From Octopus vulgaris (lineage: Eukaryota), in assembly GCA_951406725.2 (NCBI GenBank), contig OX597818.1:8432001-8496000 (forward strand): a DNA stretch of 64,000 nt. The letters run 5' to 3'. The translations under genes and the position numbers were made by a program. Below the pieces are notes generated by a model that was given only the letters and a program-made list of their open reading frames with translations, searched no databases and had not been told where the DNA came from. Positions 2,433-60,536 of this stretch are shown here, one piece after another. How positions within the stretch are numbered: the first letter of the stretch is position 1; each line of letters starts with the position of its first letter.

Positions 2433-4905
2433 TCTCTCTATATAAAAAAGGCAGTTTGTCTGTCTGTGTATTTATCTGTCTGTCTGTGTGTCTGTCAGGT
2501 TGTACCCTCATCCTGACCACGGCTTACAACCGATTCTGATGAAACTTTACACACATATAGCCCAATGACATAATTCAAAACTAATGCAGCGAAAAGTTTG
2601 AAAATTCCCCGCAGTTCTGAAAAAAATCGATAAATTCAACATGGGGTTAAGAATCTAAGCTTATCATATGCAACACATTTTCTGTTGTAGTTTTCGCAAC
2701 TTGCAATCGATTTTCTCCAAACTAATGGTGAAGCTTAATGTTACCCTAAGGAACTTAATTCTGACGTTAGTTTTTCATGCAATACCTTACCATCAGAAAA
2801 AATCGATAAAATCATGCCGTTTTGGGAAATCGCGTTCAAATTCAAGATGACATATTTTCGACAATATCTTTAACAAATTGGCAGGAATGTTTTTTTGAAA
2901 TTCACAGCGAGCATCATGTCTGCTCCAAAGACCTATATGGCCCTTTTGATTCCAATAGGATACTTTATTACTGGAAAAAATCAGTTTATTACATCATATG
3001 TGGCACACATAGCAAACCGATTTTTCTGCGATATTTTTTGAAAGTTCACATAGATGTTCCCTACACCGATGTTGGACATCAAGTTTGCATTAAATATCAA
3101 CCTAACGACCTTTTGTCAATGCAATTAACAAGTATTGGGAGAAATCGACAAAACTATATCACTTTGAGACCGCCCATGCGAAACCTACAATACTGACTTT
3201 TATTAAATAGTTGGCGGATTTCAGGTGATTTAGTTGATTTTTGCCGCTTTGCTCATAAAGGTTACTAGAAATAACATATGTTTTCCTCTTGCTTCAAATC
3301 CGAGTAATGTTGGGCTGTAGATGCGTTTGCGGTTGTGTGCGCACGTTCGCGCGTGTCCTTGACACGATGATTGCAGCTCTTCCCATTGGCTCCCCAAACG
3401 GTGAACAATGCTCTCAATTTGACCAATCACATGCACTGACACACTCAGTTGTGCGCGTATAGTTTGTGACTCCCACTTCTTCTCTCGGTTCACACCCGCT
3501 CGCTTCACACGTTGGTCTACTTCTGCTAATCGCTGCTGCAGCCGCAAGTTATTCGAATACTTGTTTCGTTTAAACTTTCTTTATAACTACTACCCCAAAC
3601 GTTTTACCTTAAATTTTTGACGTACCCTAAGGGTCCTCGGACGCAACTTGCAAACTCTTGGTTTAATATAAGCTGCTTTTGTCGTGTGCACCAAAAAACC
3701 TTTTCCATTCGTTTGTTCAGTTTGGTCACTTTTCGCTTTTTTGTTGTTGTCACTCACAGTGCTGCCCGCTTTTTTTCCGTTTTTGTACATTTTTATACAT
3801 TTCGGGATACTTACCCCACGTGTTCCTTTTTATTACACCTTTGCCAAACACATTGCTATCCACTAAAATGCCACCCAAGAAGAGAAGGACCCTCCTCAGC
3901 CCTCGGACGGCCAAGGCATTGGCTGCTAGGGCTAGAAGGGCTCGCGAGACCCACGAGGAAGCCGCCTTGCGCCTCTCGCAAAAAGCTTCCAGTTCAACCG
4001 TCAACTCCATCAATACCCAGCTACGTGAAGCTATTCCTGGTGATGTCCAGGTCTACAAATCTATAGATAAGACAGCAGACCCCACCGAGCTTGCCGATTA
4101 TCCCTTTGAATTCCTGAATTCACTTGAACCGCCAGGCCTGCTGCCACACATCCTGAAGTTAAAAGTTGGTGCGCCCATTATGCTCCTCAAGAATTTGGTT
4201 CCACCTAAACGGTGCTACGGCACACGTCTGGTTGTGAAACATTTGGCACCACATTTAATAACAGCCACAATACTTACCGGTTGTGGGAAGGGAGAGGACG
4301 TCTTCATTCCAAGCATGCACCTTCAACCGTCGGGCGCTGACATACCAATCCACTTCAGGCGTTCTCAGTTTCCTGTTAAACTCTGCTTCGCAATGTTCAT
4401 CAATAAATCCCAAGGCCAAAAGCTACAAGTCGCTGGGTTACATTTGGGCGAACAGTGCTTCGCCCACGGTCAACTCTACGTGGACTGTTCACGCGTTGGG
4501 AGGCGCAATGATGTTTTCATGTTTTCGCCCGAAGGGACAGCTAGGAACCTCGTATACACAGAAGTATAGGAGTGAAGAGAAGACGTTGCAACCTACACGT
4601 GCGCCTTCGTTCCCTAGAGGGAAAGGACTAGATCGGGATTAGTTGTTGCCTACTAGAGGCTCCTGAGGCCCCTTTCGCTAGACTTAAGTTAGGATCAGGT
4701 AGGGCTTAGCTGTGGTCCAAACCCAACTTGGGTTCGGGGGGCGGTGTCAAAAGGGCCGGCATATGCAACATTATCACCTCTGCCTGTCAAACTTCATTTT
4801 ACAAAATAACGGTTAAATGAGTACAATAAAGAGTAAAAAGGTAAAGGGCAGTGCTTATCGACAAAGTTTCTTTCATACCCGGGCAACGCCGGATTATGCT
4901 GCTTG
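2433..4905 (+). mobile_element. Internally deleted Helitron with both termini
   Basis: Starts A|TC at 2432-2434 followed by a (TGTC)n subterminal tract. 3' GC-rich hairpin cccgggcaacgccgg (4878-4892), then CTTG|T (CTRR variant). Contains a PIF1 helicase C-terminus. Confidence 0.8.
3868..4569 (+). CDS. Truncated Helitron RepHel: basic N-terminus fused in frame to the PIF1 helicase C-terminal region (233 aa)
   Basis: ATG 3868 MPPKKRR...; helicase segments EFLNSLEPPGLLPHILKLKVGAPIMLL, QFPVKLCFAMFINKSQGQ, FAHGQLYVDCSRV; stop at 4567-4569. Confidence 0.75.
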   Translation: MPPKKRRTLLSPRTAKALAARARRARETHEEAALRLSQKASSSTVNSINTQLREAIPGDVQVYKSIDKTADPTELADYPFEFLNSLEPPGLLPHILKLKVGAPIMLLKNLVPPKRCYGTRLVVKHLAPHLITATILTGCGKGEDVFIPSMHLQPSGADIPIHFRRSQFPVKLCFAMFINKSQGQKLQVAGLHLGEQCFAHGQLYVDCSRVGRRNDVFMFSPEGTARNLVYTEV

Positions 4906-5676
4906 TTGTTAAATATTTTTACAATGTTCATTCCATTGATTACGATAAATATAGCAACATTTATCCATTTTTTTTTATCCAGGAAAGACCGGTGAGTAGT
5001 CATTTCTTTATTCTTCAACGTATAATAACATTCATACATACTCATATACCCTAGTGACATTTTGCTTTCTGATACGATGTCCATCTCTTGTTCAGTATTT
5101 ACCGTGAAGACTGTCCCTATTTCCCAAGCTTATCAGATCGAGTTACAAGAGCTGCCTTTCGAATGTACTGAATAATTTACAAGTTGTTCGTTATTTGATA
5201 ATATTCTACATTTTCTCTTTGCTTTTTCCATGCCACATAATACTTTATATTATTATTTCGAATCCATCCCACAACCTCCATTATTATGATGACATTACTG
5301 TGACTTCTCTATAAATAACTAATATATTCTTTTTTATATATATTGTGAGTTTTGCTGAACCTACCGAAAAGTTTGCATCACTATATAAAAAATCAAATAT
5401 TATTGCGTGGGAAAAAACTATACATCTCTTCAGTACTCCCAATACAGACTGGTAATATGAGCCTTAACTTTGTCATTGATAATTCCATACGCTTATATAA
5501 TTTATCCATCCTTACAAGTGATGATGGAAATAATTGTCCTCCTTGAACATGCTAATAAATAGAAAGTGCGCTTGTATATATAGAAAAATATATGTGTGTA
5601 TGTATGTATGTACGTATATCCATTTTCCTTGTACATCGATGAATTTTGTTTCTGTGTGTATAGATATATATGATTT

Positions 5677-6400
5677 TTGTCAATGTGGCAAGTAGAAACC
5701 TCGGCCCCCACCAAATCGAAAGGCAGCTTGAATACCGAGTTCGACGTCCTGCCTCCCAGCAATAACGTAGCAGCAGTTCCCAAGGAGGCAACGGCTCGTG
5801 CAATTTCTTTCTCCCGACGAATTTTAGCAAGTATTAATTGTGTTATAAAGGACTTCCGGTACCTCGAGGAACATCGAGAAAAAATGTCGCCCACCTGTTT
5901 TTCAATGACACTGACGACAGTTTCGTACGCCAGCCTCTAATCAGGGTGCAATGTCGATTCATTTACTCTCAGGTACTCCGCAAGTCCATCAGCGGCATAC
6001 GACAATTCCAGAAGTAACTTTGGTGCGAGTGAGTCCACGTCCTGTCGCAATGAGGATGGCAAACCGAATGTGTTCAACGCCGCCCCACCTATTTTGAGCA
6101 GGGCATCCTCGATTTCAATCAACGCGTTATTGTAGATCAGGTCTTTGTATCCAACGTCAGCATTAGGGCACCGTTTCTTTGCCATCCACAGGAAATACTT
6201 GGACATGGAGTCGATGTAATTCACCCACAAAGAAGCTGGATCGGAGAACACACATGTTTGGAGCAAAATAACGAAGACTTGCCGTTGGCTTTTAGGTGAG
6301 TTTAGCAAAGCCCCTTCAGCCAAAGTTGGACCCATTTAAGTTACGCCAAAAAGCCTCATTGCTGTTGATGTACCGCCCCGATAGGTACTCAGAAGCCTCA
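5677..6400 (-). pseudogene. Helitron helicase fragment (pre-helicase region, degenerate Walker A, motif Ia)
   Basis: QVFVILLQTC...PASLW; frameshifted FLDVPRGTG (GTGK Walker A); AVASLGTAATLLLGGRTSNSVFKLP. Confidence 0.85.
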
Positions 6401-10629: not shown

Positions 10630-10709
10630 ATATATATAAATGTCTGTATATATATATATATATATATATATACGGAGATGTACTCTGAGATCGCGTTCTG
10701 GAACGAAAA

Positions 10710-10990
10710 CAATTGCAGCGTGGAAGGTGTGTGTAAGCCATTTAAGAAACACACAAAAGCCGTTCGATTCACTTCAACATTTAAGTTTAACTTGTCAAAA
10801 TATGTTTGTCGCTAAAATCCGCGATCTGTTCACTGACAAAAATCCGCGCTGCATCTCTGCGATGCAGTGAACAGGTCGCGGATTTTAGCGACAAAAATAT
10901 TTTGACAAGTTAAACTTAAATGTTGAAGTGAATCGAACGGTTTTTGTGTGTTTCTTAAATGGCTAACAAACACCTTCCACGTTGCAATTG

Positions 10991-10991
<1 letters not shown>
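10710..10991. repeat. Inverted repeat (~125-bp arms, ~30-bp spacer) of a PLE-like unit, flanked by (TA)n
   Basis: acaattgcagcgtggaagg...ttcactg (10710-10835) is the reverse complement of cagtgaac...ccttccacgttgcaattgt (10865-10991). Confidence 0.95.
10792..10839 (-). ncRNA. Degenerate minimal type-I hammerhead, G3-C8 variant
   Basis: ttgtca GTGAACA g atcgc ggatttta gcgac AAAC atatt t tgacaa: 6-bp stem I and stem II present; G12 is replaced by A. Confidence 0.55.
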
Positions 10992-11036
<45 letters not shown>

Positions 11037-11400
11037 AATAATAATAAAAGAGTAAAACTAATTAATTATTAATTAATTTTACCAAGTAGTGTCCAGTATG
11101 TAAAACGACCATTTACGGTATATTTGAAACATTACGTTATGAAAATAGGGTTCAGTAAAATAATTTACTTTACCACACACAGAACGTTTTATAAATAGCA
11201 GCCAGAAATCTTAGCTATTTCTTCTACTTAAGAAAAATCTCCCAGACAATGCATACTCAAAAATAACTCACACAGGTATAGAGGGAAAAATAACGAAAGA
11301 TCACAAGTATATAAGATTACTTGGATTAGTTGAATATAAAGACCAACATGTCCTTCGTCAGCTCAGAGATTTCTCATGGTTTGAATTTGAGTGTTCTCAA

Positions 11401-11603
11401 ATTGAAATTAAAATATTAAAGTTCATTAAAATATTTCACAACAGTACATACTCATACTAAACTATGCATATATACATCAACATACACAGATAGATGTGCA
11501 CAGACTACATCTATCTGTGTTTGTTGATGTATATATGTATAGTTTAGTATGAGTATGTACTGTTGTGAAATAATTTAATGCATTTTAATATTTTAATCTC
11601 AAT
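11401..11603. repeat. Fold-back palindrome, ~97-bp arms, 9-nt loop
   Basis: ...catacacagatagatgt gcacagact acatctatctgtgtttg...; arms are near-perfect reverse complements. Confidence 0.95.
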
Positions 11604-12429
11604 TTCCATGTATTATTTATATTTTCTTTATTAAGGACAATATGTATTTTAACCAAAGTTTCGATGTAAGGTTTTTTTTCTCGACTTTTATAATTTTACA
11701 TATTTTTTATATTTTATATTGAGCTCATTTTTGTTTATCGCTCGAATATGACCGCTATTTGAAAGGACCAATCAAACAAGTCCATTTTTAAAGGTGTAGC
11801 GTTTATACTAGTCTTGATAGAATTGGCATATCGGTTCTATTTAACAAAAACTGTCCGACGAACGGGAATATAAAACTCCGAGTAACAGGTTTTGTTGAAT
11901 TTCTGCTGTTTTTAAATAAAGCATATAACTCTAACCTTGGTAATTGAGTACTTTTCTTTTCCACGTTGTTTCACATTTATGTGTTTACTCCGGTATATAT
12001 ATATATATATATTCATACATGCTAATAGACAGATGTTCATATACATCCGTACTTACATACTCTTTAACTCTTTACCGTTGTGATTCTTGAATTTTCAGAA
12101 CGAAGCTGAGTTATATCATTTCGTGATTTAATGCTTTTCTCTACAAGCAAGCGACCTAATACATAGCTACTTACCTATGAAACTGGCTACCACCAACATA
12201 CCTACCAACCTACCTACCTAATTATATATATACATACATACGTAACTACCTATATATAAATACACACAGAGAAACACACGCACACACACAAACATATATA
12301 CATACATATATATATATATATAATTAAAATCACAATAAGGGTGAAAAAAATTGAAAATTAATTAATAACATCAATTTAAAACACCAAGTGGCCTAGCGTA
12401 AAAAAATTGTGATACAGTAAAAATTATTA

Positions 12430-14620: not shown

Positions 14621-15112
14621 AATAGATAGATAGATAGACAGATAGACAGATAGATAGAGGGATAGATAGATAGATGGATATATAGATATAGATAGAATAT
14701 TTATACATACATATATATATGTATATACATTTTTGTATATATATGTATATATGTATATATGTATATTTGTATGTATATATGTATATGCCTGCATACATAT
14801 ATATGTGGGGTGGTATATAAATATATATTGATATAGATAATGTGTATGTGTGTATGTATAAATAAATATGTATATATATATATATATAAGGACCTAGGAA
14901 AAATGTGTCGAAGCCATCAGGAAGCGTCGATGCTTCCTAGGGCTAAACAGCGGTGGGGTAATCCCTTACTGTCACGTTAAATTGACAGTATACAACCATT
15001 ATATCGCCCCACCACCGTACATATCTCTCTGAGATATTTAGAAATTTAATACTTCTGATTTTGGTAATCAGGGAATAAACTTCACTGAAAATTAGATATA
15101 TATATTTGCGAA

Positions 15113-15412
15113 GTCGGGACAGATATCTGCAGCTGGCGGGCTTCTGCTACTCTAGGCCGATGATGGACAAAGATCTTGAAACATGCGTGTCTCTAGATGC
15201 AGGCCTGGCTGCTGGGGGTGTTTGTCTCCCCTTCGTAAATATATAAGGAGACAGGAAAAATGTGTTGAAGCCATCAGGAATCGTCGATGCTTCCTAGGGC
15301 TAAACAGCGGTGGTGTAATCCCCTATTGTCACGTTAAATTGACAGTATGCAACCACTCTATATGTCATGATGGTTCTAAGGTGGTCAAACTCTGAATGAG
15401 GAATAGACAACC

Positions 15413-15416
<4 letters not shown>
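15113..15416 (+). mobile_element. Short non-autonomous retroelement with a 5' HHR-like motif and an RTE-type 3' end; partial second copy at ~14888-15000
   Basis: 15362-15416 matches the 3' end of the RTE at 16674-16728 (reverse complement, 53/55). HHR-like motif at 15151-15197. Confidence 0.65.
15151..15197 (+). ncRNA. Degenerate type-I hammerhead
   Basis: tctagg CCGATGA tgga caaaga tctt GAAAC atgcgt GTC tctaga: U4 changed to C, weakened stem II, 6-bp stem I. Confidence 0.55.
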
Positions 15417-15448
<32 letters not shown>

Positions 15449-15675
15449 ATTAATCAATATAGGGTGGCAAAAAAAATTTTGTAGAATTTTTTTGCCACTA
15501 GCGGCCTAGTGGGAAAAAATTAAATAGTCATAAACCATTTTTAAGTTCAACATCACAATCAAGGAACGGCCATAATAGGCCATTCACCCACTAGAAATAA
15601 CAGCCAAAAGCTTCAACCGCAAAATAACATCAATTCCGTAAACCAGGAGAAAATTAAAAAAACATTTACCTTGTA

Positions 15676-15782
15676 ATTTCTTATACGATGCACCGTTTCG
15701 TCTACTGTTTAATGGTAAACTAACCTGATTAAATTAAATCAAGCCAATCTACCATAGGCCCTTAGATTCATCAGTAAGAAAT
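15676..15782 (-). ncRNA. Type-I hammerhead with long stem II extension
   Basis: atttctta CTGATGA atcta [hairpin insert] tagac GAAAC ggtgcatc GTA taagaaat; 8-bp stem I. Confidence 0.75.
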
Positions 15783-16167
15783 AGCCAAGTCGGAACAGAT
15801 ATTTTTCACGAGGCATTCCCGTCCCTGCCTCGGCAATATCTGACGTAAAATTTTCAAATCATCGCACTCGCGCCAAATTTATCGGCAGCAAATAAATATA
15901 AGCCGCCGATTCCATTACGGAATTAACCAGAAAATTCATAATTAATCAATATAGGGTGGCAAAAACAATTTTGTAGAATTTTTTTGCCACCAGCGGCCTA
16001 GTGGGAAAAAATTAAATAGTCATAAACCATTTTTAAGTTCAACATCACAATCAAGGAACGGCCATAATAGGCCATTCACCCACTAGAAATAACAGCCAAA
16101 AGCTTCAACCGCAAAATAACATCAATTCCGTAAACCAGGAGAAAATTAAAAAAACATTTACCCTGTA

Positions 16168-16274
16168 ATTTCTTATACGATGCACCGTTTCGTCTACTGT
16201 TTAATGGTAAACTAACCTGATTAAATTAAATCAAGCCAATCTACCATAGGCCCTTAGATTCATCAGTAAGAAAT
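16168..16274 (-). ncRNA. Second copy of the extended-stem-II hammerhead
   Basis: Identical to 15676-15782, offset by 492. Confidence 0.75.
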
Positions 16275-16563
16275 AGCCAAGTCGGAACAGATATTTTTCA
16301 CGAGGCATTCCCGTCCCTGCCTCGGCAATATCTGACGTAAAATTTTCAAATCATCGCACTCGTGCCAAATTTACGTCATTAAACAGTAGACGAAAATTTA
16401 CCATTAAACAGTAGACGAAACGGTGCATCGTATAAGAAATTACAGGGTAAATGTTTTTTTAATTTTCTCCTGGTTTACGGAATTGATGTTATTTTGCGGT
16501 TGAAGCTTTTGGCTGTTATTTCTAGTGGGTGAATGGCCTATTATGGCCGTTCCTTGATTGTGA

Positions 16564-16629
<66 letters not shown>

Positions 16630-16631
16630 AC

Positions 16632-16673
<42 letters not shown>

Positions 16674-16677
<4 letters not shown>

Positions 16678-17900
16678 GGTTGTCTATTCCTCATGCAGAG
16701 TTTCACCACCTTAGAACCATCATGACATCTGATGTGGCTTTTTAAACCAGGCAATGTTCTGAAAAGACACCCACATAGACTGCATTTCCGATTTGGACCA
16801 CCAAGAGCTGCAAATAAGTTCTGATCTTAGTGGATCTTAACATGTCTTTTGAGACATCCGTTAGATTTGCACACTTTCTGGCATACACTGTTTTCAAAGG
16901 TGTGCACAGGCATATAGGCAGAATAGGTAGGGGAGGTTCGTTTTCCATAAGTTCGCAAATGAGATTTGAGCCCAGTAAATGAAAGGCATGGTCTGTCACA
17001 GATTGTGCACACAAAAAGGTCTTTGTCATTTACCTTTTCGATCGTAACATTCTTTCTTAGATCTCTTTTGAGTCCCAATTGCTTATCCTGGCCTCTTCAA
17101 ACACTTTCACTCCACTCCACATTATTTTCGCCATCCAGCTCGATCCGAAGCAAGGGTTTCTATGTCTTCTTGATCCAATCCAAATGACTTCATAGCAGTC
17201 CTTATGTCGTCATTAAAAAGTTTTTAATATTTACGCCGATAGCATTTCCCCTCTGCAAACTCGTTTCGGCATTCTAACGATATGGCTACACCATTTTATT
17301 TGGTTCCTCAAGAATCACAAAATTAAATGAGATGATTCCTGCTGGTGCAAAGAGATCTGTGTTTGCAGTAAATGCGAAGAAATCTAACAATTTAAAATGC
17401 TTTTCATAACAGGTCCATCTTTCACAAGAATACAACAGGGATGGTAAGACAAATGATTTGTAAAGAGCTAGCTTTGTATTCTTTTATATACATGTCGCTG
17501 GCATCAAACGTGAGACTCCAAGCCACCAAATGCTTTTACTGCCCTTTGAGTTTGCAGATGTATTTCTGTTACAAGGTTTTCATAATATTGTACAGAGCTT
17601 GAAAGTTAGATGAACGAATCGACAACGTCAAGTAACTTACCCGCATGCAGGACTATTTTTTGCAAGTTGATGGTCAAGCCAAAATCATCAAAAGCTTAGT
17701 CAAATGCAGGTACAAGAGATTGCGGACCTGTTTCAGAATTACTGATAATATTGCAATCGTCAGCGTATAAAAGTTACCTAAAGAGTGAAGTAAAAAAACA
17801 GGAATCTCCAAGGACTCAGGTTTTATTTAAGAGATTTCCTTCTCGTAGGTAGAATACCTTCAAAGGTTAAAGAACATCTACCTGACCATGAGGTAAGCTA
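16674..17900 (-). mobile_element. RTE-clade LINE 3' part, degenerate, with C-terminal C2H2 fingers
   Basis: LYADDC, FGLTINLQK, KAFGGL, TKLALYKSFVLPSLLY; fingers CTICDRPCLSFTGLKSHLR and VCQKVCKSNGCLKRHVKIH; tail runs into (TA)n. Confidence 0.85.
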
Positions 17901-28659: not shown

Positions 28660-29747
28660 GATATGTGCAAATATGGAGATATATATATATATTTCTAATT
28701 ATTTTTTCCGTAACCAATGAAGGTATAAATTTATAAACTTTGATTTAAAGTGGCTATTTTCTTTTTATAAACACAGTAAATTTGTGCTATTCACTCATGA
28801 ATTACAAACAATAATGTTTATATTATTACGCATAAATAAATTACAATATCTCTTAAATATAATTATATATCTTTTTGAATAATTATGCATATCTGAATAT
28901 TTCTCGTAGACCCTACAATATTTAGCATATATCATCCTCCTATTTTCTTTCGAACTTGTATGCGCATAAATATTATTGAAATATAAAGCTATTGGCTTAC
29001 TCTGTAAATGTAAGTCAAATTCTGATAATTTATTTATTTTATATTATCATTTTTATGTAAGAAATAGTAATTTTATAATAATAATTTGTTTAATATCGGC
29101 GTATTCAGAAAAAAACTTTTTGAATTATGGAATTGTTGATTAAAATTTTTTTATGTGTTTCCTGTCTGAATAGAATATATCCTTATTTACTTTTTCTTAA
29201 TAGTATATAGAAATTTTTAAAAATATATTTCCTACTCCACTATAAGTTCTTAACATATTTAGATTTTATATAAGAAAAATGGGCAGTGATTGTTTTGGAC
29301 TAAAATATCTTTAGATTAATATTATTAAAATTGTGTGAGAATATTCTATGACCGTTGTAATTGTTTTGCTTATTTAATTCATTTTATCTATTTGAATTTT
29401 GGTTTTCTTTTTATTTGTATCATATTCTTAAATTATTAATGCTCACGCTTGTAAACTTAGATATATTTTAAATATGTCTATTTTATGATTCGGCAGTCCT
29501 CGCATGAAACTTTTTTCTATATTTTAGACAAATATTAACCTGGCGGCATTCAGATGCATAAATATAGCACTGAACCATACTGTTGGGAAGCAAGCTTCTT
29601 ACCACACAGCAACACTTGCGCCTGAAAAATACGGAATGCTTCACACATTTGTGTTTTTCTTGCTCAGAGGCTGTGATAGTCTTCTCTGTATAATTCCAAT
29701 TTTAGTATATGTATTGCAGAAGCAATATATATTCTAGATATATTATA

Positions 29748-30465
29748 TCAGAACCCACTATCACAAAATCAACAATCTGCTTCTGACACTACTGCTACTA
29801 CAGCCAGAATAGAAAAACCACTACTACAACCACATAAAACCTCCTGCCGTTACTATTCTAAAGGCAACTGTAGATTTGGCCCCAGCGGCACGAACAACAA
29901 TGGACGCTGTGCTTTTTCCCATCCTACCTTATGTCGTAGACTTGTTAAGGGCCCCTGTCCGTATGGTATAACAGGAAAAAACTGTCCCCACCTCTACCCC
30001 AAATACTGTCCTAAATACAGAATCCATGGTTCTGATCCTAAATACGGATGCACAAAAGGCAATGGATGCACCTTATTCCATCCTAAACTGTGCCAAACTT
30101 CTGGGTCACAAAGAATGTGCCTGAACCCAGAATGCAACCACCACCATCCGAAGGGCACAAAACGATCACGGAATAAATATAAACAGGATCAGAGGAAATC
30201 TGGGACAACAGCAAGAACAAAATACAACCACGTTTCCCCTCCTACAATCAAACAACGTAGACAGAACCATGAAAAAGCACGAAGTAACACCAACATGAAA
30301 TATGTATCCTCTGACCAAGTGGCAAACCAAACAAGTAACTCTTTTTTACTGACATACCTAGAAAATATGAAGGCCGACCGAAGCCAGGAGATCCAGCGAG
30401 CTATCACCAACCACCTATGCAAATCACAAGGACCACTCACTCATTACCAACTTCCCTTACCTTGA
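29748..30465 (+). pseudogene. LINE ORF1 C-terminal part with four tandem CCCH-type zinc fingers
   Basis: Open frame: CRYYSKGNCRFG...CAFSHP, CRRLVKGPCPYG...CPHLYP, CPKY...CTKGNGCTLFHP, CQTSGSQRMCLNPECNHHHP. Confidence 0.75.
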
Positions 30466-33210
30466 CATTCCTGTGCAAAGTCAAGTGACATTCCTGTGCA
30501 AAGTCAAGTCCTTCCTTTGGAAGTACCACTCCGGAAACATACTGGTGATGGGTGATTTTAACCTCCCCCATGTGAACTGGCCCACAAATACTCTGAAGTT
30601 AGGCAAGTGCTCCACATCAGATAGAGCAGCAGCAGAACTGCTCTTTAATCTGATGGATGAGTACTTCCTGACTCAGCTAGTGCTCGAACCAACGAGGCAG
30701 AATAAAACGATCTTGGATCTGGTATTGACCAATCACTCTAGCTACGTTCACAGTATTTCTGTCGAAAAAACTCTCCTCTCAGACCACGACATGGTACCCT
30801 GCAATTTTAATTCCCGACATATAAAAACCAAACCAGTCAATCCCACTCCATGGTACCCATTTGACAACATAAACTTCCACAAAGCGGACTGGGGAGCAAT
30901 CAGAAAGGATCTGTCTTCCATCGACTGGTCTTTTACTCTCAGTTCCTCTCATGTTGAGACCGCGTGGCAGCACTTTGAAAACATTGTCACCTATACATGC
31001 TCTACACACGCTCCCACGAAATCTACTAACACAAACAGAAACCGGCTCCCTAAAAAGAAAAAAAAAACACTCATCAGGCGCATCAAAGGACTCAACAAAA
31101 AAATCAACCAATTAAAATATTCCCACACACAACATCCACATTTAACAACAATGAAAAGACTAGAGCTGGAAAAACTTCAACTGCAGACCAACATGAAAAC
31201 CTCCATTGAAAATCAAAGAGCTGTGGAGGAACAGTGGGTAAGCAAAAACGTCAAACAGAACCCAAAAGTGTTCTATTCTTATGCAAATAAGCATAGAACC
31301 ACTGTCTCACCCATTGGGACATTGATTGATGATAACGGCATTCGCCAACACGATGCTAAAGAAATGGCAGAAATACTGCAGAAATACTGCAGAAACAATA
31401 CTGCTCTGTCTTTAGTGTTCCCTCTGATATTGACGTAAGAGAAACGAACGAAATTGACTACCAACGTAAAATCTCAGACATAACCTTCACTGCTACTGAC
31501 ATCGTAGCAGCAATAAATGAGGTCAAATACTACTCTGCTGTAGGGCCTGATAGATTCCCCGCTAGTCTCCTGAAGGAAGGTATACACCAACTTGCAGTCC
31601 CTCTGACCAACCTCTGGAGAAATTCGTTAGACGCAGGTTATATACCGAAACAGTTTCTATCCCAGTCGATCATCCCGGTTTTCAAACAGGCAAACAGATC
31701 CCTCGCAGTCAACTATCGTCCAATCTCACTCACCTCCCACATCATTAAAGTGTTTGAAAGAGTGTTAAGATCAAGCATAGCTGACTTCCTGGAGACCCAC
31801 AAACTCCTAAATGCAAACCAGCATGGCTTTCGCTATGGTAGGGACTGTCTAACACAGCTGTTACACCACATTGAAGATGTACTCAAAGCCTTGGGAACAG
31901 GTTCGAACTCTGACGTCATATATCTTGACTTCAATAAAGCGTTCGACAGGGTAGACCATAATATCCTACTCTCAAAATTGGCAAATGTTGGAATCCGTGG
32001 AAAAGTTCTGCACTGGATTAAGCATTTCCTGGCGAATAGAACACAACATGTTGTAGTTGATGGAGTCCACTCAAGCCCAGCAAAAGTCACCAGCGGTGTT
32101 CCCCAGGGGACTGTTTTGGGTACGCTACTCTTCATAATTTACATAAACGACCTTTCCAGTGTCGTACATTACTGCAAAGTGAAAATATTTGCTCCAGCAA
32201 ATCGTCAATGAAGAAGCAGACCGAAATCAACTCCAGTCTGATCTATATGCTATGAGTCAATGGGCAGACAGAAATAAAATGCAACTGAATGAAGGAAAAT
32301 TTGAGCTGATGCATTTTGGTAGAAATTCCTCACTAAAACAACCATACTCTCTTCCTTCAGGGGACCCGCTCACAGCCTCTAACAATATCAGAGACCTGGG
32401 TGTAATTGTTGATGACGATCTCAGTTGGAGTGCACACATCAACAAGAAGGTCGATATAGCTGGTAGGATGAGTTCCTGGATCTTAAGAACTTTCCGGTCC
32501 AGAGAACAAGGTGTCATCATACCACTTTTCTCCTCCTTTGTACGACCACACCTTGAATACTGCTGCCCACTGTGGTCTCCCCATACAAGACAAAACATCT
32601 CCAGGATTGAGTCACCCCAGAGGGCACTCACTAAACGAATTGAAGGCATGGCTGCTCTCGATTATTGGGATCGCCTTTAAAGCCTTGAAACTTTACTCCC
32701 TCTAGCGTCGCCGTGAGCGGTACATCATTTGTACGATGTGGAGAATATACCGCCAACTTTGCTCAAACGACCTTAACATTAGCTTCAAGGTTCATCCAAG
32801 ACTGGGACTTCGGGCCATACGTCCCCTGCCCAATTCAAGATCACAACCTACATGTACACTGCAACATAATTTCTTTTCCTCAACAGGCCCTGCCCTATTT
32901 AACATTGTCCCGAGGGAGATCAAAGAGGAAAAGGATCCCATCAACTTTAAACGGAGTCTGGATAGATTCTTACAAAGAATACCAGATAAGCCACCCATAA
33001 TTGGATACAACTCACCCAACAAGAAATCAATACTTGAACAAAACTTGATACAACTCACCCAACAAGAACTCAGTACTTGAACAAAACTTGACTTAAACAG
33101 AACGTGACTTAAACAGGATTCGAATAATCCTATCAGGTGGTGCTATTAAGTTAGACATGGCCTGAACCAATCTTTGGTCGAAACATATCTAAGTTATCTA
33201 AGTTATATAA
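29748..33210 (+). mobile_element. CR1-group LINE, 5'-truncated and inactivated: CCCH-finger ORF1, EN, RT, 3' UTR
   Basis: EN motifs GDFN, LDLVLTN, SDH; RT motifs NYRPISLTS, NQHGFR, LDFNKAFDRVDH, GVPQG; catalytic DD deleted near 32190; tail (tatctaagt)x2; 23-bp tandem duplication at the ORF1/EN deletion (~30463-30509). Confidence 0.9.
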
Positions 33211-45080: not shown

Positions 45081-46712
45081 AAAAATCTACTGAAATAACT
45101 ACATTCTATATTTTTCCTCAATATGCTGTCTTAGATTAAACCCATGTTATACAGGATAGTTGAACAGATATTTCTTAACATGAGAGAACTAGAAGATTCT
45201 ATGATATAAAGTCTGCAAAGCGATACCAAACAGGCATCAGAAACAAGCCATCATCCCTCGATTTATTAGCAGGAGCAGTCACAACTACAACGTACAAGAC
45301 AAATATCGCATATGTTGAGAATTCCGCAAGGAAATACGCCTCTCGTTATCAGAATACAATAATACAATTTAGTTTATATTCTCAAGAACTGTGAATTATA
45401 GACGTTCAGATCCAATAGGATGCATTGTCTGACGAAATGGTTCTGTGGCATTGACATTACATTCTAATACAATTCAGTGTATCAGTATCTAGAAAATGCT
45501 CGATATATGCGATATTTATCGTTCATAGTTTAATTATTGTGAAAATTCCTTTTAATATATCTTCTAATGTCAACCTCTTGCATGGAGATCGCTGTTGATT
45601 TTGCAGTCCCATTCAGGGTCTGTTTTGTACAACTAGGACAGATATAGTATTATATTTATGTATGACATATCAATATGCCCCACATATTTATACCTAAGAA
45701 TCAATAATACAGGAAACGCTGTTAGATTCTAACACTACGTTATTCATATAAGTCATATATGTCATATAAGTCATATAAATCATAAGTCACGAAAATAACT
45801 AAATAATAGTGTTTTGAAGAAGAGAAAATGCAACTCATGCAGCGCAAATGTGAGCTGAAAAGACCAAAAAAAAAAATTAATCCAATTTCGCTGGTCAACT
45901 AAACATTTACCAGCAGTAAATTATATTCCCACGATAGGTTTTGTAAGCTGTAACGTGACAAGGGCGATTCACATTCATTTCTATACGTATGTTGTCAAAA
46001 TGAAGAAAAGCGGTTTCTTGTCCATTTGTCCATCTGCTTTTGTTTTGTTTTGTTTTTTTGAGTGGGGTACACAGACTTTAGTTCGCAGTGGTTATAATAA
46101 TGAAATTTCAAATATAGAATTTTATTAGCACTTACGGGCATACACACAATATACGCGCGCACACAAACAAGACACAAAGAGACACAAAGAGACAAACAGG
46201 CAGAGAGACAGACACACACAAATTTATATATATGTGTATATAAGATTTTAACCGAGTTTCAAGCACGAATTTGAAATGACATCTATTATATGACTATGAG
46301 AATCGAGATTGATAAGATTTTTGAAATGAGAGGTTTGATAAATGAATGTATTCGAAGGAAAATTAGTAAAATAAACGACAAATAAATCGGTTAATTCAAA
46401 GAGAGAAAAGGAAACAAGAAATGTAGAATGACTTGCTTTACCTTTTTATTCATAGGCATTAGTGGATGTTTCTTCCTTGATTTATAAATTCAGAAATGTA
46501 CAAACAACTTCCTCTCAATTCTACTCTTTTCCTACTTCGAGTTGCAGTAATAACCCCAAAGGGAAGTATGTATGCATATATATATATATATATATATATA
46601 CATGCACACAAACATATATATATATATATATATATACATACATGCACACAAACATCTGTATATATATACATGTGTGTATTTATGTATTGTTGTGGGGACA
46701 ATAATAATAATA

Positions 46713-46787
<75 letters not shown>

Positions 46788-46788
<1 letters not shown>

Positions 46789-49700
46789 TTGACCCAACAG
46801 AAGTACATGAGCTAAAAAATCAAATCATGATTGAATGGCTGAAAATTAAAGAAACCAGCATGGATGAACGTGATACACTTCCTAAAATCCGCAACTCTAA
46901 CCAAAACATGAAAATAATTGGTAAAATCCGGCTTGCACTTAAGGATATAATTTCAACTAATGATGTTGATATCACAAACCTTAACCACCTATACTATGCA
47001 TCCGCGAAAATCTCAACGATCCTATGTGGTGTAAAGATTAGAAAACGGCAACATTCCCACAAAAAGCCTTCTTGGCAAGAGCGTCTGCAACAACAAATTA
47101 AAATATTTAGATCTGACGTTGAATATTTGAAAAACCTTAAGGCTCACAAGACTACCAAACCTACAAAAACCCAAAAGTTACTGAAAAAATACAATATGAA
47201 AACTATACTTGATATTGATGCCACTATAGAAACCATCAAACAAAAGGTATCTGCCAAAGCTGCCCGCATAGCGAGGTATGAAAAGCGTGTTAGATTTTTC
47301 AAGGACAACAACATGTTCAAAAATAACACCAAGAATTTTTACAGGAAGATAGGAAAAACAGCGTTTACTGCAAGGTCTGTACCATCAAAAGAGGAAGTGC
47401 AGGGATTTTGGAATAAAATCTGGGCAGAAGAAAAAACACACAACGAAAAGGCCCCCTGGATTGACAGAATATCTACAGAACTGGACCCCTTAGAAGAGCA
47501 AAAGTGGGAGGGTGTCAAGGTAGAAGATATAAGATCTGCTCTCAGGAGGTCAAGCAAATGGAAGTCTCCAGGAAAGGATAAAATTCCCAACTTCTGGCTG
47601 AATGCCTTCCCAGAGAGCCATGAACTGCTAACAGAACTGTACAATGATGTTTTGCAACACCCTAGTAGGATGCCTCCATGGCTAGTTAATGGGTTAACAT
47701 TCCTGCTTCCAAAAAGTGAAGAAACAAATGAACCAAAAAACTATAGACCCATAACCTGCTTAACAACTATGTACAAAACACTAACATCTGTCCTGACGGA
47801 ATATACCTATAGTTTTTTAGCAGACAGCAGCATATTCCCTAATGAACAGAAAGGATGTAAACGTGGATCCTACGGCTGTAAAGACCAACAACTCATCAAT
47901 AAGATGATCTTAGAAGATTGTCACAAAAGACACAAAAACTTATCAATAGCCTGGATAGACTATAAAAAGGCTTTTGATAGCCTACCACATAGCTGGATTA
48001 GGAAATGCCTGGAAATGTATAAGATAGCACCTACTCTGCGAAACTTCTTGACTGTAAGTATGAGATCATGGAGAACCACACTAACTCTGAACAGTGACAA
48101 TGAATCCCTAAATGCTGGTGATGTAAACATTTCGTGTGGCATTTTCCAGGGTGACTCACTGTCACCACTTCTCTTTTGTTTATCCTTAATATCTCTCTCA
48201 AAGCTGCTCAATGACGCGCAGTACGGGTATAAAATGTTTGATAAAAATATAAATCATCTCGTTTACATGGATGATTTAAAGCTTTTTGCAAAAAATGATC
48301 AACAACTCAAGGGCTTACTAGCGATAGTCAAACAATTCAGTGACGACATCAGAATGCAATTCGGCCTCGATAAATGTGCAAAGGCTACCTTTATCAAAGG
48401 AAAAATGACAGAAACATCAAACGTTAACCTTGACCAACAGAATGTCATAAAAGAACTGGACCCAGCGGAGAGCTACAAGTACCTAGGGGTAATTGAAGGG
48501 AACGGAATAAGGCATTCAGAGATGAAGGAAAGGATCAGGAGAAAATGCTATAGTAGAGTGAGAGCAATACTCAAGACAGAGCTGAATGCAAGAAACAGGA
48601 TCGAAGCGATCAATGCATTATCCATACCAGTCGTGACTTACAGTTTCAATATTGTTAACTGGTCAATTACTGAAATATGTCAGCTCGACAGAAAAATAAG
48701 GAAACTGTTGACAATGCATAGAATGCACCACCCTAAGGCAGATACCGAACGACTCTATCTGCCAAGAAAAGAGGGAGGCCGTGGTCTTTTGCAACTGGCA
48801 GTAACAATGAAGATTGCTACAATTGGCCTAGACACCTACCTGAAAAACTCTGAGGACTGGATGTTAAAACTTGTCTCAAAACATGAAAACAAGAAAGCAT
48901 CACACTCAGTCACAAAACAGGCAAAGGAATATCTAAGTGAATTCCGAATACAACCAATTTCGGAATTAGAGATAGATATACAAGAAACAAGCACAGAAAA
49001 AGCTAGACGCATGAAAATCCGTGCCAAATCTGCGGCCTTAGATATTCTGAATAATAAATGGCAAGAAAAACCTCTCTATGGCAAATACCCAAAGAGAGCG
49101 AATAATGCAGATATCGACAAAGCCCTGACCCATCAATGGCTAATGGCCTCTGGCTTAAAATCTGAAACAGGGGGGTTTATCATAGCAGCTCAAGATCAAT
49201 GGCTACCAACAAGAAACTACCAGGCCAACATATTAAAGAACGGCAGTAGCCCAACATGTCGTGTATGCCGACAACAAAATGAAACCATTGACCATGTTGT
49301 CTCCAAATGCAGTCTTCTAGCGCCTACAGAGTACCTCAGTAGGCATGATAGAGCTGCACAATATATTCACTGGGTAATTTGCAAAAACCTGGATTTGCCC
49401 CATGAAAAAAACTGGTGGGAACACAATCCACCTCCAGTGCTTGAAAATGACCACATCTCACTCCTCTGGAACTTCACCATTCAAACTGACAGGAAGATAG
49501 ATGCAAATAGGCCAGACATTATATTGAAAGACTTCAGACAAAGAACATGCCTCCTCATTGATATGACTGTCCCAATCGATATAAACGTATCTGTCAAGAC
49601 CTACCAAAAACTGAGCAAATATGAAGATCTTGAAATAGAAATCAGCAAAATGTGGAAGCTGAAGACTAAAACAATACCTGTTGTCATAGGTGCCCTGGGA

Positions 49701-49823
49701 ATGATAGCGAAAAGGACTGATTGCTACCTAACTCAGATACCAGGAAACCCCAAAATGGCAGAAATTCAAAAGATAGTGCTCATGGGAACTGCTCATATCC
49801 TACGCAAAATACTCTCTATGTAA
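46788..49823 (+). CDS. RT-RLE polyprotein of the Dong/R4 element (uninterrupted ~1010 codons, N-terminus missing)
   Basis: WKSPGKD, NYRPITCL, IDYKKAFDS, GIFQGDSLSP, YMDD, CRVC..ETIDHVVSKC, RHD, RPDII..DMTVP..KLSKY. The ORF-track start at 46572 is a microsatellite artefact. Confidence 0.9.
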
Positions 49824-52177: not shown

Positions 52178-53340
52178 TACGAGGGGGTGTATGAAAAGTC
52201 TTGAGCCTGGAAGAAACAAAACATGGTACAGGGCCTTTGATGATTTATATTTCAACATAGTCCCCATCGCTGGCTACACACTTTCTCCTGTGGTGCTGAA
52301 GCGCTATTATCCCGGCGTAGACTCCAAGAAACTTCCTACAGCATATATGACCTCATTGTCACTGGCAAACTGGCGACCAGCTAGGGCTGTTTTTCATTTT
52401 GGGGAATAGATGAAGGCGGATGGGGAACAAGTTCGTATCCACAGTCTCGAAATGTTGCCATGGCAACCACTCAGGTGTGGGCTGGAGCATTGTCGTCATG
52501 AAAAAGGGCTCCTCTGATGAGCATTTCAGGCTTTTTTTAAAATTGTTTCTTGGGGGCGTTTCAGTATCTGAGATTAATACAGCCTTGTCACGGTGTGACC
52601 CTTTTCAAAGTAATCGATCAGTAAGACACCTTGAGAATCCAAAAATAACGGACGCCATGATCTTGCCGGCTGAAAGAATGACCCTTGCATTCTTTGGGGT
52701 TGGAGAAGATGTTCTTTATTTTCTGTGATTGTTCTTTGGTTTCAGGCTGGTAGTGATGATCCCAACATTTGTCTATAGTGATGAAATGAGCAAGAAATGC
52801 ACTTCATCAGCTTCAATCAGTTCATGATTGCTCGTGGACAAAGGACACCTGGCTCGTTTTTGTTCATGAGTCAAAAGGCGAGGGATCCCCTTGCGGAAAC
52901 CTTTGAGAACCCAAGTTCTTTTGTCGCAATGTTGTCTGATCTTTCATTTGAGATGCCCAGTTTCTCGGCTATCTTATGACATGATATTCGGCGATCTTTC
53001 ATTAATATACGAAGAGCAATGTCAAGGTCGTTCTCTGTGGTAGAAGTTGCAGGTCTCCCTGGTCTGGGATCATCTTTCACACTCTCCTTGCCACGCTTGA
53101 ATTCATTTATCCAGGGTTTGACTTTTACATATGAAGGAGCTTTGTCTGTTAAGGTTCTCATCATATCTTCATAGATTTCTGATAGAGTCATGCCTTTCAA
53201 ATGAAGATAACTTATGACTGCACGATACTCAATTTTCTACATTTTCCTTTTAACTTCGACACTTGTTTTTTAAAAAATCTGAAATAAAAAAATAAAAATA
53301 TCAGAATCATGAAAACGAACAAGTTCCAAAAATTTCCTTC
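52178..53340 (-). mobile_element. Mariner transposon, decayed
   Basis: TA-cgaggg...aaaagt TIR; HTH APSY..VK.WINEFKRG..SVKDDPRPGRP; FSKVSAR; RQFASDNEVI. Confidence 0.85.
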
Positions 53341-60436: not shown

Positions 60437-60536
60437 NNNNNNNNNNNNNNNNNNNNNNNNNNNNNNNNNNNNNNNNNNNNNNNNNNNNNNNNNNNNNNNN
60501 NNNNNNNNNNNNNNNNNNNNNNNNNNNNNNNNNNNN
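60437..60536. other. Assembly gap (100 N)
   Basis: Run of N. Confidence 1.

What the first reader, a model, noticed from the sequence alone, without database searches (positions are those of the whole stretch)
15446..16565. 492-nt tandem unit whose hammerhead has a long G-U-rich hairpin inserted in stem II
Seen on the minus strand: 8-bp stem I, CUGAUGA, GAAAC, helix III ACGG-ugca-UCGU and a GUA site. Loop II holds a 19-bp hairpin (auggUAGAUUGGCUUGAUU / AAUCAGGUUAGUUUAccau) with five G-U pairs that would be A-C mismatches on the other strand, so it folds only on the ribozyme strand. The 10.1-11.1 pair is A/C in both copies, which may impair activity. Established: tandem plus inverted arrangement is typical of PLE insertions. 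Inference: an unusual large-stem-II HHR whose insert may be regulatory or a dsRNA/Dicer/ADAR substrate.
Basis: partly seen in the sequence, partly recalled or inferred. Interest (0 to 1): 0.72.

Follow-up and report, generated by a model that had tools for sequence, protein, structure and literature searches.

The report
Long-armed hammerhead in animal retrozyme family
A very common non-coding repeat in this genome carries a hammerhead (self-cutting RNA) motif with an unusually long extra hairpin, is predicted to fold into its cutting shape only when two copies lie side by side, and shows signs of likely A-to-I editing in RNA, so it is likely a new variant of the known 'retrozyme' jumping elements of animals rather than a new kind of system.

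Summary
In detail: a 492-nt unit in 1.9 tandem copies plus a 169-nt inverted arm, set in (TA)n, with a type I hammerhead on the minus strand whose stem II is extended by a 19-bp hairpin with five G-U pairs. Rfam misses it. Public runs show a very large family in at least three organisms; the hairpin is a standing part of it, not an insert in this copy. Most family depth has A10.1-U11.1 (73-96%); this copy has the minority C11.1. The predicted best fold of the two-copy transcript is a double hammerhead with a 12-bp cross-copy helix III, while a single unit blocks its own core. Two probable RNA runs show clustered A-to-G changes in ADAR context on both strands, inside and outside the hairpin, including the core; this fits long double strands made by inverted arms better than a special role of the hairpin. 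Covariation within the hairpin was not shown, and most family depth breaks one of its pairs. Verdict: new structural variant of a Penelope-mobilised animal retrozyme; cleavage, circles and the partner element untested.

The parts
15934..16373 (-). Upstream (5') copy of the repeat, 440 nt, 5'-truncated at 16373; holds hammerhead 1
15882..15933 (-). 52-nt part of the 492-nt unit present once here; pairs within the monomer and is as deeply covered in genomic runs as the ribozyme
15442..15881 (-). Downstream copy, 440 nt; runs 109 nt past the common family 3' end (15551, equal to 16043) into (TA)n: a one-sided tail
   Evidence: table 7: (AT)n beside 16042-16044 in 14 contigs of X1 and 1 each of X10, X11
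16162..16281 (-). Type I hammerhead 1: stem I 8+4 bp, CUGAUGA, A10.1/C11.1, 4-bp stem II, GAAA, self-complementary helix III, GUA; predicted cut between 16176 and 16175
16204..16247 (-). 19-bp hairpin with five G-U pairs on stem II of hammerhead 1
15670..15789 (-). Type I hammerhead 2 (same anatomy; hairpin 15712-15755; predicted cut between 15684 and 15683)
15684..16175 (-). Predicted 492-nt monomer between the two cut sites; 62% paired as a circle, -146.4 kcal/mol, z -5.4 (40 shuffles)
   Evidence: release and circularisation are inferred
16367..16420 (.). Head-to-head junction of the tandem and the inverted arm, with a local 25-bp duplication and a few shared bases
16397..16565 (+). Inverted, 5'-truncated arm (169 nt): starts inside the 3' arm of the hairpin, ends at the common family 3' end; lacks the CUGAUGA half; gives a predicted 169-bp double strand in a read-through transcript
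15416..15448 (.). (TA)n target, left side
16566..16674 (.). (TA)n target, right side

Best explanation
This is one insertion of a high-copy, non-coding repeat family whose 492-nt unit carries a type I hammerhead with a long stem II hairpin, and it is likely an animal non-LTR retrozyme moved by a Penelope-like element. Mechanism, step by step. (1, shown as anatomy) The unit lies as a partial tandem with an inverted truncated arm and a one-sided tail in (TA)n, the footprint described for Penelope-type insertion. (2, predicted) In a multimeric transcript two neighbouring hammerheads swap their self-complementary helix III and form a double hammerhead, which cuts out 492-nt monomers. (3, predicted) A lone monomer pairs its CUGAUGA with the helix III strand and is switched off, which would protect a circle. 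(4, inferred from known retrozymes) The monomer is ligated to a circle; circle or multimer is copied by a Penelope reverse transcriptase primed at a cut in (TA)n. (5, inferred) The hairpin is a fixed structural arm, one of ten helices of 8 bp or more in the monomer, with no separate function shown. (6, seen in contigs of probable RNA runs; cause inferred) Transcripts that read through an inverted arm form long double strands and are hyper-edited by ADAR on either strand, at times in the catalytic core. This copy has the minority A10.1/C11.1 state and is likely a weak cutter.
For: Anatomy. Family: 20 of 24 listed runs hold part of the unit, 11 studies; organisms A-D hold 40-88% of its words; 7,687 contig records laid from run X1, summed depth about 1e6 against tens to hundreds per record. 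The head-to-tail joint 16373->15882 occurs in X1 (8 contigs) and X17 (1 contig). Double hammerhead: the unconstrained best fold of minus 16300-15640 is the double form, -201.8 kcal/mol against -189.7 for two single hammerheads, cross-copy pairs P 0.92-1.0; helix III strand self-duplex -17.5 kcal/mol, own helix III P <= 0.01, core-blocking helix P about 0.94 in a single copy; active fold 3 kcal/mol above the free fold in the circle. Dimer action of type I hammerheads with palindromic loop 3 is described in PMC4209133 and PMC7229834. Variation fits a kept ribozyme: N7 (16262) is the only place listed with all three other bases, none of the 12 fixed core places is among the 40 rows shown, 16255 and 16196 both vary towards a G-C pair in stem II, and 9 of 11 listed changes in predicted helices keep a pair alone or with the partner's change. 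Editing: 4 of 12 shown loose ends of the RNA runs hold 3-9 same-type A>G changes, 0 of 9 shown for the genomic runs (compared by eye); 0 of 26 such sites have a 5' G, P about 0.006; 7 of 26 have a 3' G against 12-14% background; this is the ADAR context in PMC4365171.
Against: No cleavage, circle or strand of transcription is shown; all runs are contigs, and 'RNA' for X10 and X11 is a guess. The absence of variants in the core is not significant by itself (P 0.21) and 50 variant rows and 78 loose ends were hidden. Linkage of 16255 with 16196 is not shown and their shares differ (23% v 40% in X1, 73% v 16% in X10). 2 of 11 helix changes break a pair (16243, 16256), and 3 of the 9 that keep one are the RNA-enriched A>G changes, which always do. 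RNA and DNA runs come from different samples, so expressed subfamilies can mimic single-site editing (16213 G also has 6% in genomic X17); by kind of change A>G plus T>C make 29 of 63 and 28 of 47 places in the RNA runs against 13 of 35 and 9 of 26 in the genomic runs, a modest excess; I picked the 26 sites by hand. No Penelope ORF is in the window and no genome was held, so the partner is unknown. The tail is 109 nt, not the usual 30-40. In one Penelope element ribozyme mutants still inserted in vitro (PMC11167929), and 4-27% of depth has C11.1, so cutting may be dispensable for spread. Folding models ignore tertiary contacts.
Confidence: 0.68

Rival explanations
1. The unit is the pseudo-LTR (3' end) of an autonomous Penelope-like element, and this locus is a heavily 5'-truncated insertion of it, not a separate non-autonomous family.
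For: Same tandem/inverted/tail anatomy; hammerheads lie in pLTRs; retrozymes derive from pLTRs (bioRxiv 2026.07.22.740005 abstract). Depth in X1 falls over 16307-16373, as 5' truncation would give.
Against: The direct head-to-tail joint at unit length recurs in two organisms and the 52-nt linker is as deep as the ribozyme; the unit folds as a closed, highly paired monomer; no frame of 50 codons lies wholly within the tandem.
Confidence: 0.14
2. The ribozyme is a passenger: the family spreads from uncut multimeric transcripts, and this copy (A/C at 10.1-11.1) never needed to cut.
For: All three pieces here carry C11.1, so the template likely had it; C11.1 holds 27% of depth in X1; mismatches at this pair lower cleavage (PMC3088659 passage); ribozyme mutants still insert in vitro.
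Against: Variation falls on N7 and mostly keeps helices; U11.1 is 91-96% in the RNA runs; the two-copy fold is exactly the active geometry.
Confidence: 0.1
3. One reading: the hairpin is a dedicated regulatory insert, a Dicer or ADAR substrate that controls the ribozyme or yields small RNAs.
For: All 5 non-Watson-Crick pairs work as G-U on the ribozyme strand (P 1/32 for transitions); two hairpin adenosines in UAG context are RNA-enriched for G; the hairpin is kept in organisms A, B and D; one genomic loose end has 4 of 4 changes in the 3' arm compatible with pairing to this copy's 5' arm.
Against: Editing clusters also lie at 16089-16108 (plus strand), 16188-16202 and 16292-16297, outside the hairpin; most depth breaks pair 5; no two-sided change shown; 9 of 12 possible transitions in that arm keep pairing anyway (chance of 4 of 4 about 0.25); 19 bp is short for Dicer (recalled).
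Confidence: 0.06
4. A DNA-level repeat or fold-back product in which the hammerhead-like letters and the hairpin are chance.
For: The plus strand of the unit also folds better than shuffles; Rfam gives no hammerhead hit.
Against: All core letters in order with three helices, 0.05 expected per window; strand asymmetry; N7 variation; Penelope-type junctions.
Confidence: 0.02

Closest known systems
Animal non-LTR retrozymes (Cervera and de la Pena 2020, PMC7229834; Li, Clavereau and Pollet 2026, bioRxiv 10.64898/2026.07.22.740005)
   Same: Non-coding tandem units below 50% G+C (37% here), one type I hammerhead per unit, high copy number, highly self-paired monomer; axolotl forms cut better as dimers and one has a weak base of helix II.
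   Different: Unit of 492 nt is above the 150-450 bp of the 2020 paper (inside the 51-972 bp of the preprint); stem II carries a 7 x 7 internal loop and a 19-bp hairpin instead of a small loop 2; A10.1-U11.1 instead of G-C; the monomer is predicted to block its own core, which the 2020 paper says most animal circles do not; hyper-editing appears here, while that paper only lists RNA editing as one possible cause of mussel heterogeneity.
Penelope-like element pLTR hammerheads and insertion structures (PMC4209133; PMC8557442; PMC11167929)
   Same: Partial tandem, inverted 5'-truncated copy at the 5' end, tail on one side, (TA)n target, palindromic helix III suited to dimers.
   Different: No RT or GIY-YIG frame; full rather than minimal hammerhead; tail 109 nt rather than 30-40; no extra nucleotide between A9 and 10.1 and no G10.1-C11.1 pair in the common form.
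Discontinuous Clec2 hammerheads of mammals (as described in review PMC6765202)
   Same: Natural hammerhead whose core halves are separated by an insertion, so standard models miss it.
   Different: [quoted passage not shown]
Inverted Alu pairs as ADAR hyper-editing substrates (PMC4365171)
   Same: Clustered A>G changes with few 5' G neighbours in an abundant short retro-repeat that forms long double strands when inverted.
   Different: The inverted partner is built into single insertions, and the edited RNA is a ribozyme whose core can be hit.

Membership tests
Type I hammerhead ribozyme | C3-U4-G5-A6-N7-G8-A9, G12-A13-A14-A15.1, U16.1-H17 in order | tested here: met
   both copies
Type I hammerhead ribozyme | Three helices, helix I open | tested here: met
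   Helix I 8+4 bp and II 4 bp have P 0.67-0.99 in a single copy; helix III forms only across copies (P <= 0.01 alone, 0.92-1.0 in the tandem)
Type I hammerhead ribozyme | Paired 10.1-11.1 (usually G-C) | tested here: inconclusive
   Not met in this copy (A/C); met as A-U by 73-96% of family depth if 10.1 is A there, for which no variant row was shown
Type I hammerhead ribozyme | Match to an Rfam hammerhead model | tested here: not met
   No hammerhead family among 13 matches at E <= 10 or at gathering score; likely due to the long stem II
Type I hammerhead ribozyme | Loop 1-loop 2 tertiary contact and self-cleavage | not testable with these tools
   Both stems have internal loops near the core that could make the contact; no assay
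Animal non-LTR retrozyme | At least two consecutive tandem units each with a complete type I hammerhead | tested here: met
   criterion from bioRxiv 2026.07.22.740005
Animal non-LTR retrozyme | Non-coding, no LTR, G+C below 50%, unit of a few hundred bases | tested here: met
   Frames wholly inside the tandem are 43-49 codons at most; 181 of 492 bases G or C; no tRNA head
Animal non-LTR retrozyme | Many genomic copies; highly self-paired monomer | tested here: met
Animal non-LTR retrozyme | Expressed as linear and circular monomers | tested here: inconclusive
   Contigs of two probable RNA runs cover 29 of 29 bins and carry editing-like clusters, but contigs show no ends, strand or circles
Animal non-LTR retrozyme | Target-site duplication | tested here: inconclusive
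   Both flanks are (TA)n, so none can be read
Penelope-like element (autonomous) | RT plus GIY-YIG frame between pLTRs | tested here: not met
   None in the element or among the 163 window frames scanned with Pfam
Penelope-like element (autonomous) | Partial tandem, inverted 5'-truncated copy, one-sided tail, microsatellite target | tested here: met
   features from PMC8557442 passages; tail longer than usual
ADAR hyper-edited repeat | Clustered A>G in RNA, few 5' G neighbours | tested here: met
ADAR hyper-edited repeat | Absence of the changes in DNA of the same individual | not testable with these tools
   RNA and DNA runs are different samples

The most novel reading that the evidence does not exclude
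A retrozyme family in which ADAR and the ribozyme interact: editing of the GAAA core acts as the host's off switch, and edited transcripts that are still copied back into DNA turn A-U pairs into G-U pairs, so the five G-U pairs of the stem II arm are fossil edits and the arm is an editing-shaped module of a new long-armed, dimer-only hammerhead class that standard models miss in animal genomes.
Probability: 0.15. Interest if true: 0.72.

Novelty: new variant of a known kind. Interest (0 to 1): 0.46.

Why it matters
It adds a hammerhead shape that Rfam does not detect, in a family likely counting thousands of copies, so surveys may have missed such retrozymes. The predicted on-in-tandem, off-as-monomer switch offers a testable answer, for this family, to the open question of what keeps the ribozyme quiet in animal retrozyme circles (raised in PMC7229834). 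The editing signal makes the link between ADAR and ribozyme-bearing retroelements directly testable with matched DNA and RNA. The class of element and the dimer principle are already known, so the surprise is moderate.

Tried and rejected
No genome was held, so no copy census, alignment or covariance model could be made. Rfam: only a U6 copy in the window, no hammerhead at E <= 10. Relatives elsewhere: a 20-base motif gave 0 metagenome hits; a 16-base motif gave 8 viral loci, none with a matching hammerhead (one has a CUGANGA 15 nt upstream without homology); a gapped core pattern gave 120 of about 1,100 estimated metagenome stretches, 0 of 120 with a UH site plus 5-bp stem I and none like the unit. 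Host: a homologue search with the RT frame at 46800-49820 gave best identity 62% and only scattered arthropod names far down the list, so the host is not identified; the paper searches with 'octopus' and 'cephalopod' rested on a recalled likeness of the microsatellite-rich sequence and prove nothing. No host exon was found in 150 frames (148 of the 173 filtered frames of 48-99 codons plus 2 from the neighbouring LINE) or 13 longer frames. Promoter and tRNA scans gave nothing above chance. Fossil editing as origin of the G-U pairs: family polymorphisms in X1 show no strand bias (12 A/G against 11 U/C transitions on the ribozyme strand), the G>C, U>A skew fits C>U equally well, so it stays unproven. 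Earlier findings: none for this sequence or genome; 8 listed concern other genomes and were not used. Rejected: hairpin as a private insert of this copy; G10.1-C11.1 as the common family pair; first fold of the monomer was 4 nt off the cut site and was redone.

Full report
Observation. Tandem Repeats Finder gives 15442-16373, period 492, 1.9 copies; the two 440-nt copies differ at 5 places. An inverted arm, 16397-16565, is identical to 16043-16211. Both ends abut (TA)n. On the minus strand each copy has every core letter of a type I hammerhead, an 8-bp stem I extended by 4 more pairs, a 4-bp stem II, a 7 x 7 internal loop, a 19-bp hairpin with five G-U pairs, and a GUA site. The region folds far better than shuffles on the minus strand only (z -4.3 against -1.3). 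A relaxed descriptor finds these two motifs and 0.05 per shuffled window. Rfam does not see a hammerhead even at E <= 10. Position 10.1/11.1 is A/C in both copies and 11.1 is C in the inverted arm.

Surroundings. The window is repeat-rich eukaryotic DNA with RT, Pif1 helicase and mariner-type fragments and a U6 copy; no host exon or Penelope frame was found among 163 frames scanned. I infer an animal from this content and from the editing signal; the host was not identified. The element sits in a (TA)n tract between two facing 3' ends of another element (82 nt, 97.6% alike) whose longer copy has C2H2 zinc-finger matches below Pfam's cut-offs and looks like an RTE LINE end (recalled).

The family. 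20 of 24 listed public runs hold part of the unit; organisms A-D hold 40-88% of its words. I laid 4 of the 24 on one unit: X1 (organism A, kind not recorded, treated as genomic), X10 (A, RNA by guess), X11 (B, RNA by guess), X17 (D, DNA by guess). X1 gave 7,687 records and a summed depth near a million against tens to hundreds per record; the tool warns that this is no copy number, and I infer only thousands of copies or more. The hairpin is as deep as its flanks, and none of the 3 joints listed removes it cleanly. The head-to-tail joint recurs in X1 and X17. (AT)n follows 16042-16044 in 14 contigs of X1 and one each of X10 and X11, which is where the inverted arm ends: the common 3' end. The tandem here runs 109 nt further, a one-sided tail. 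Partial tandem, inverted truncated copy, tail and (TA)n target are the Penelope footprint (PMC8557442).

The 10.1-11.1 pair. U11.1 makes 73, 91, 96 and 82% of depth in the four runs. No G10.1 row is among the 40 of 90 rows shown, though two T>C places of X1 are hidden. The common pair is therefore most likely A-U, and this copy belongs to a C11.1 minority (27% of depth in X1). Mismatches at this pair lower cleavage (PMC3088659). Since all three pieces carry C11.1, the RNA that was copied likely had it.

Selection on the ribozyme. N7 is the only place listed with all three other bases; none of 12 fixed core places is listed, which alone is not significant (P 0.21). Of 11 listed changes in predicted helices 8 keep a pair alone, 1 with its partner's change (16196 with 16255, A-U to G-C, linkage not shown) and 2 break it. 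One of these is in the hairpin: 16243 reads A in 55-96% of depth, opposite A16208, so the perfect 19-bp form is the minority. No two-sided change within the hairpin was shown. That all five odd pairs are G-U on the ribozyme strand has a chance of 1 in 32 under transitions.

How it likely works. In one copy helix III hardly forms (P <= 0.01) and a 5-bp helix pairs the CUGAUGA with the helix III strand (P about 0.94); in the circle the active fold lies 3 kcal/mol above the free fold. The 12-nt helix III segment is self-complementary (-17.5 kcal/mol as a dimer), and the unconstrained best fold of the real two-copy transcript is the double hammerhead, 12 kcal/mol below two single ones; with the family-majority 11.1 letter the 10.1-11.1 pair closes at P 0.9. 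This matches dimer action known for animal type I hammerheads (PMC4209133; PMC7229834). I therefore propose: multimer on, monomer off; ligation to a circle; copying by a Penelope RT primed in (TA)n. These steps are predicted or inferred; none is shown. At this locus the inverted arm would pair over 169 bp with one copy in a read-through transcript and cover the 3' half of a ribozyme.

Editing. Five places read G on the ribozyme strand mainly in the RNA runs: 16213 (1.7% X1, 75% X10, 17% X11, 6% X17), 16242 (0.9, 78, 21, 0), 16254 (0, 11, 25, 0), 16274 (0.1, 59, 19, 0), 16104 (0, 0, 16, 0). Among the 21 of 99 loose ends shown, 4 of 12 from RNA runs hold clusters: 6 A>G in 16188-16202 of the ribozyme strand including A14 and A15.1 of the core (X10, 2 contigs), 3 in an overlapping stretch (X10, 4 contigs), 6 in 16274-16297 (X11, 2 contigs), and 9 of 10 adenosines in 16089-16108 of the opposite strand (X11, 4 contigs); 0 of 9 from genomic runs do, one having up to 2 such changes (one search read). 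None of 26 sites has a 5' G (P about 0.006) and 7 have a 3' G, the ADAR context (PMC4365171). Limits: sites picked by hand, different samples for RNA and DNA, few contigs, and only a modest overall excess by kind of change. Editing on both strands and in the single-stranded core points to long sense-antisense duplexes from inverted arms, as with Alu pairs; the hairpin is edited but is not special in this.

Comparison and novelty. It meets the sequence criteria for an animal non-LTR retrozyme and fails those of an autonomous Penelope element. What differs is the long stem II arm, the A-U pair, the predicted self-blocking monomer (PMC7229834 says most animal circles leave the ribozyme free) and the editing. 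Eight paper searches showed no report of a natural retrozyme hammerhead with such an arm or of hyper-edited retrozymes; the library lacks most subscription papers, Lunse et al. (PMC5785218) was not held, and the supplement of PMC7229834, which draws further invertebrate retrozymes, could not be read, so a prior description is possible. Read: PMC7229834 parts 2-4 of 6; bioRxiv 10.64898/2026.07.22.740005 parts 1-2 of 5 (supplements closed); PMC4209133 parts 1-2 of 4; passages only of PMC8557442, PMC3088659, PMC11167929, PMC6765202 and PMC4365171; all others as search listings.

Verdict. Real, well-formed and family-wide; a new structural variant of a known kind of element. Interest 0.46. The boldest reading left open, ADAR as off switch and as the source of the G-U pairs, has about 15% odds.

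Noticed in passing
window 16373 and 16207-16211: Both 5' truncation points lie at or just inside the 3' base of predicted minus-strand hairpins (9 bp and 19 bp); such places are 20% of the monomer. Fits reverse transcriptase stalling at folded RNA; two events, noticed after the fact.
   Followed up: partly
window 15362-15443 (+) and 16647-17500 (-): Two facing 3' ends of one zinc-finger-ended, RTE-like (recalled) element share the same (TA)n tract, with a third 9-nt remnant near 16627-16636: a TA hotspot hit by several elements.
   Followed up: partly
window 46554-49823 (+): Open RT frame of about 1,000 codons right after an (AAT)n tract, nearest relatives 50-62% identical; recalls R4/Dong elements that target (TAA)n (recalled).
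   Followed up: partly
window 29625-29728 (-): Diverged U6 snRNA copy (65.8 bits) overlapping the start of a LINE-like region at 29680-33100; possibly a U6 retro-copy.
   Followed up: no
window 3667-4569 (+) and 5502-6335 (-): Pif1 helicase fragments on opposite strands, Helitron-like.
   Followed up: no
window 10709-10991 and 11399-11605: Short inverted-repeat elements: 127-nt arms 95% complementary, 29 nt apart; 99-nt arms 94%, 9 nt apart.
   Followed up: no
window 14879-15004 and 15236-15361: Two copies, 90% alike, of another 126-nt repeat just left of the element.
   Followed up: no
unit places 16136 and 16248-16250 in run X11: Loose ends show another head-to-head junction of the family, so inverted arms occur at other loci too.
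   Followed up: partly
unit places 15979 (X11) and 16154 (X10): A long A run is attached at an A-rich place on the ribozyme strand in X11 and on the opposite strand in X10, one contig each; could be oligo-dT priming on transcripts of both strands.
   Followed up: no
window 52871-53236 (-) and 60437-60536: Mariner-type transposase fragment; a 100-base assembly gap.
   Followed up: no
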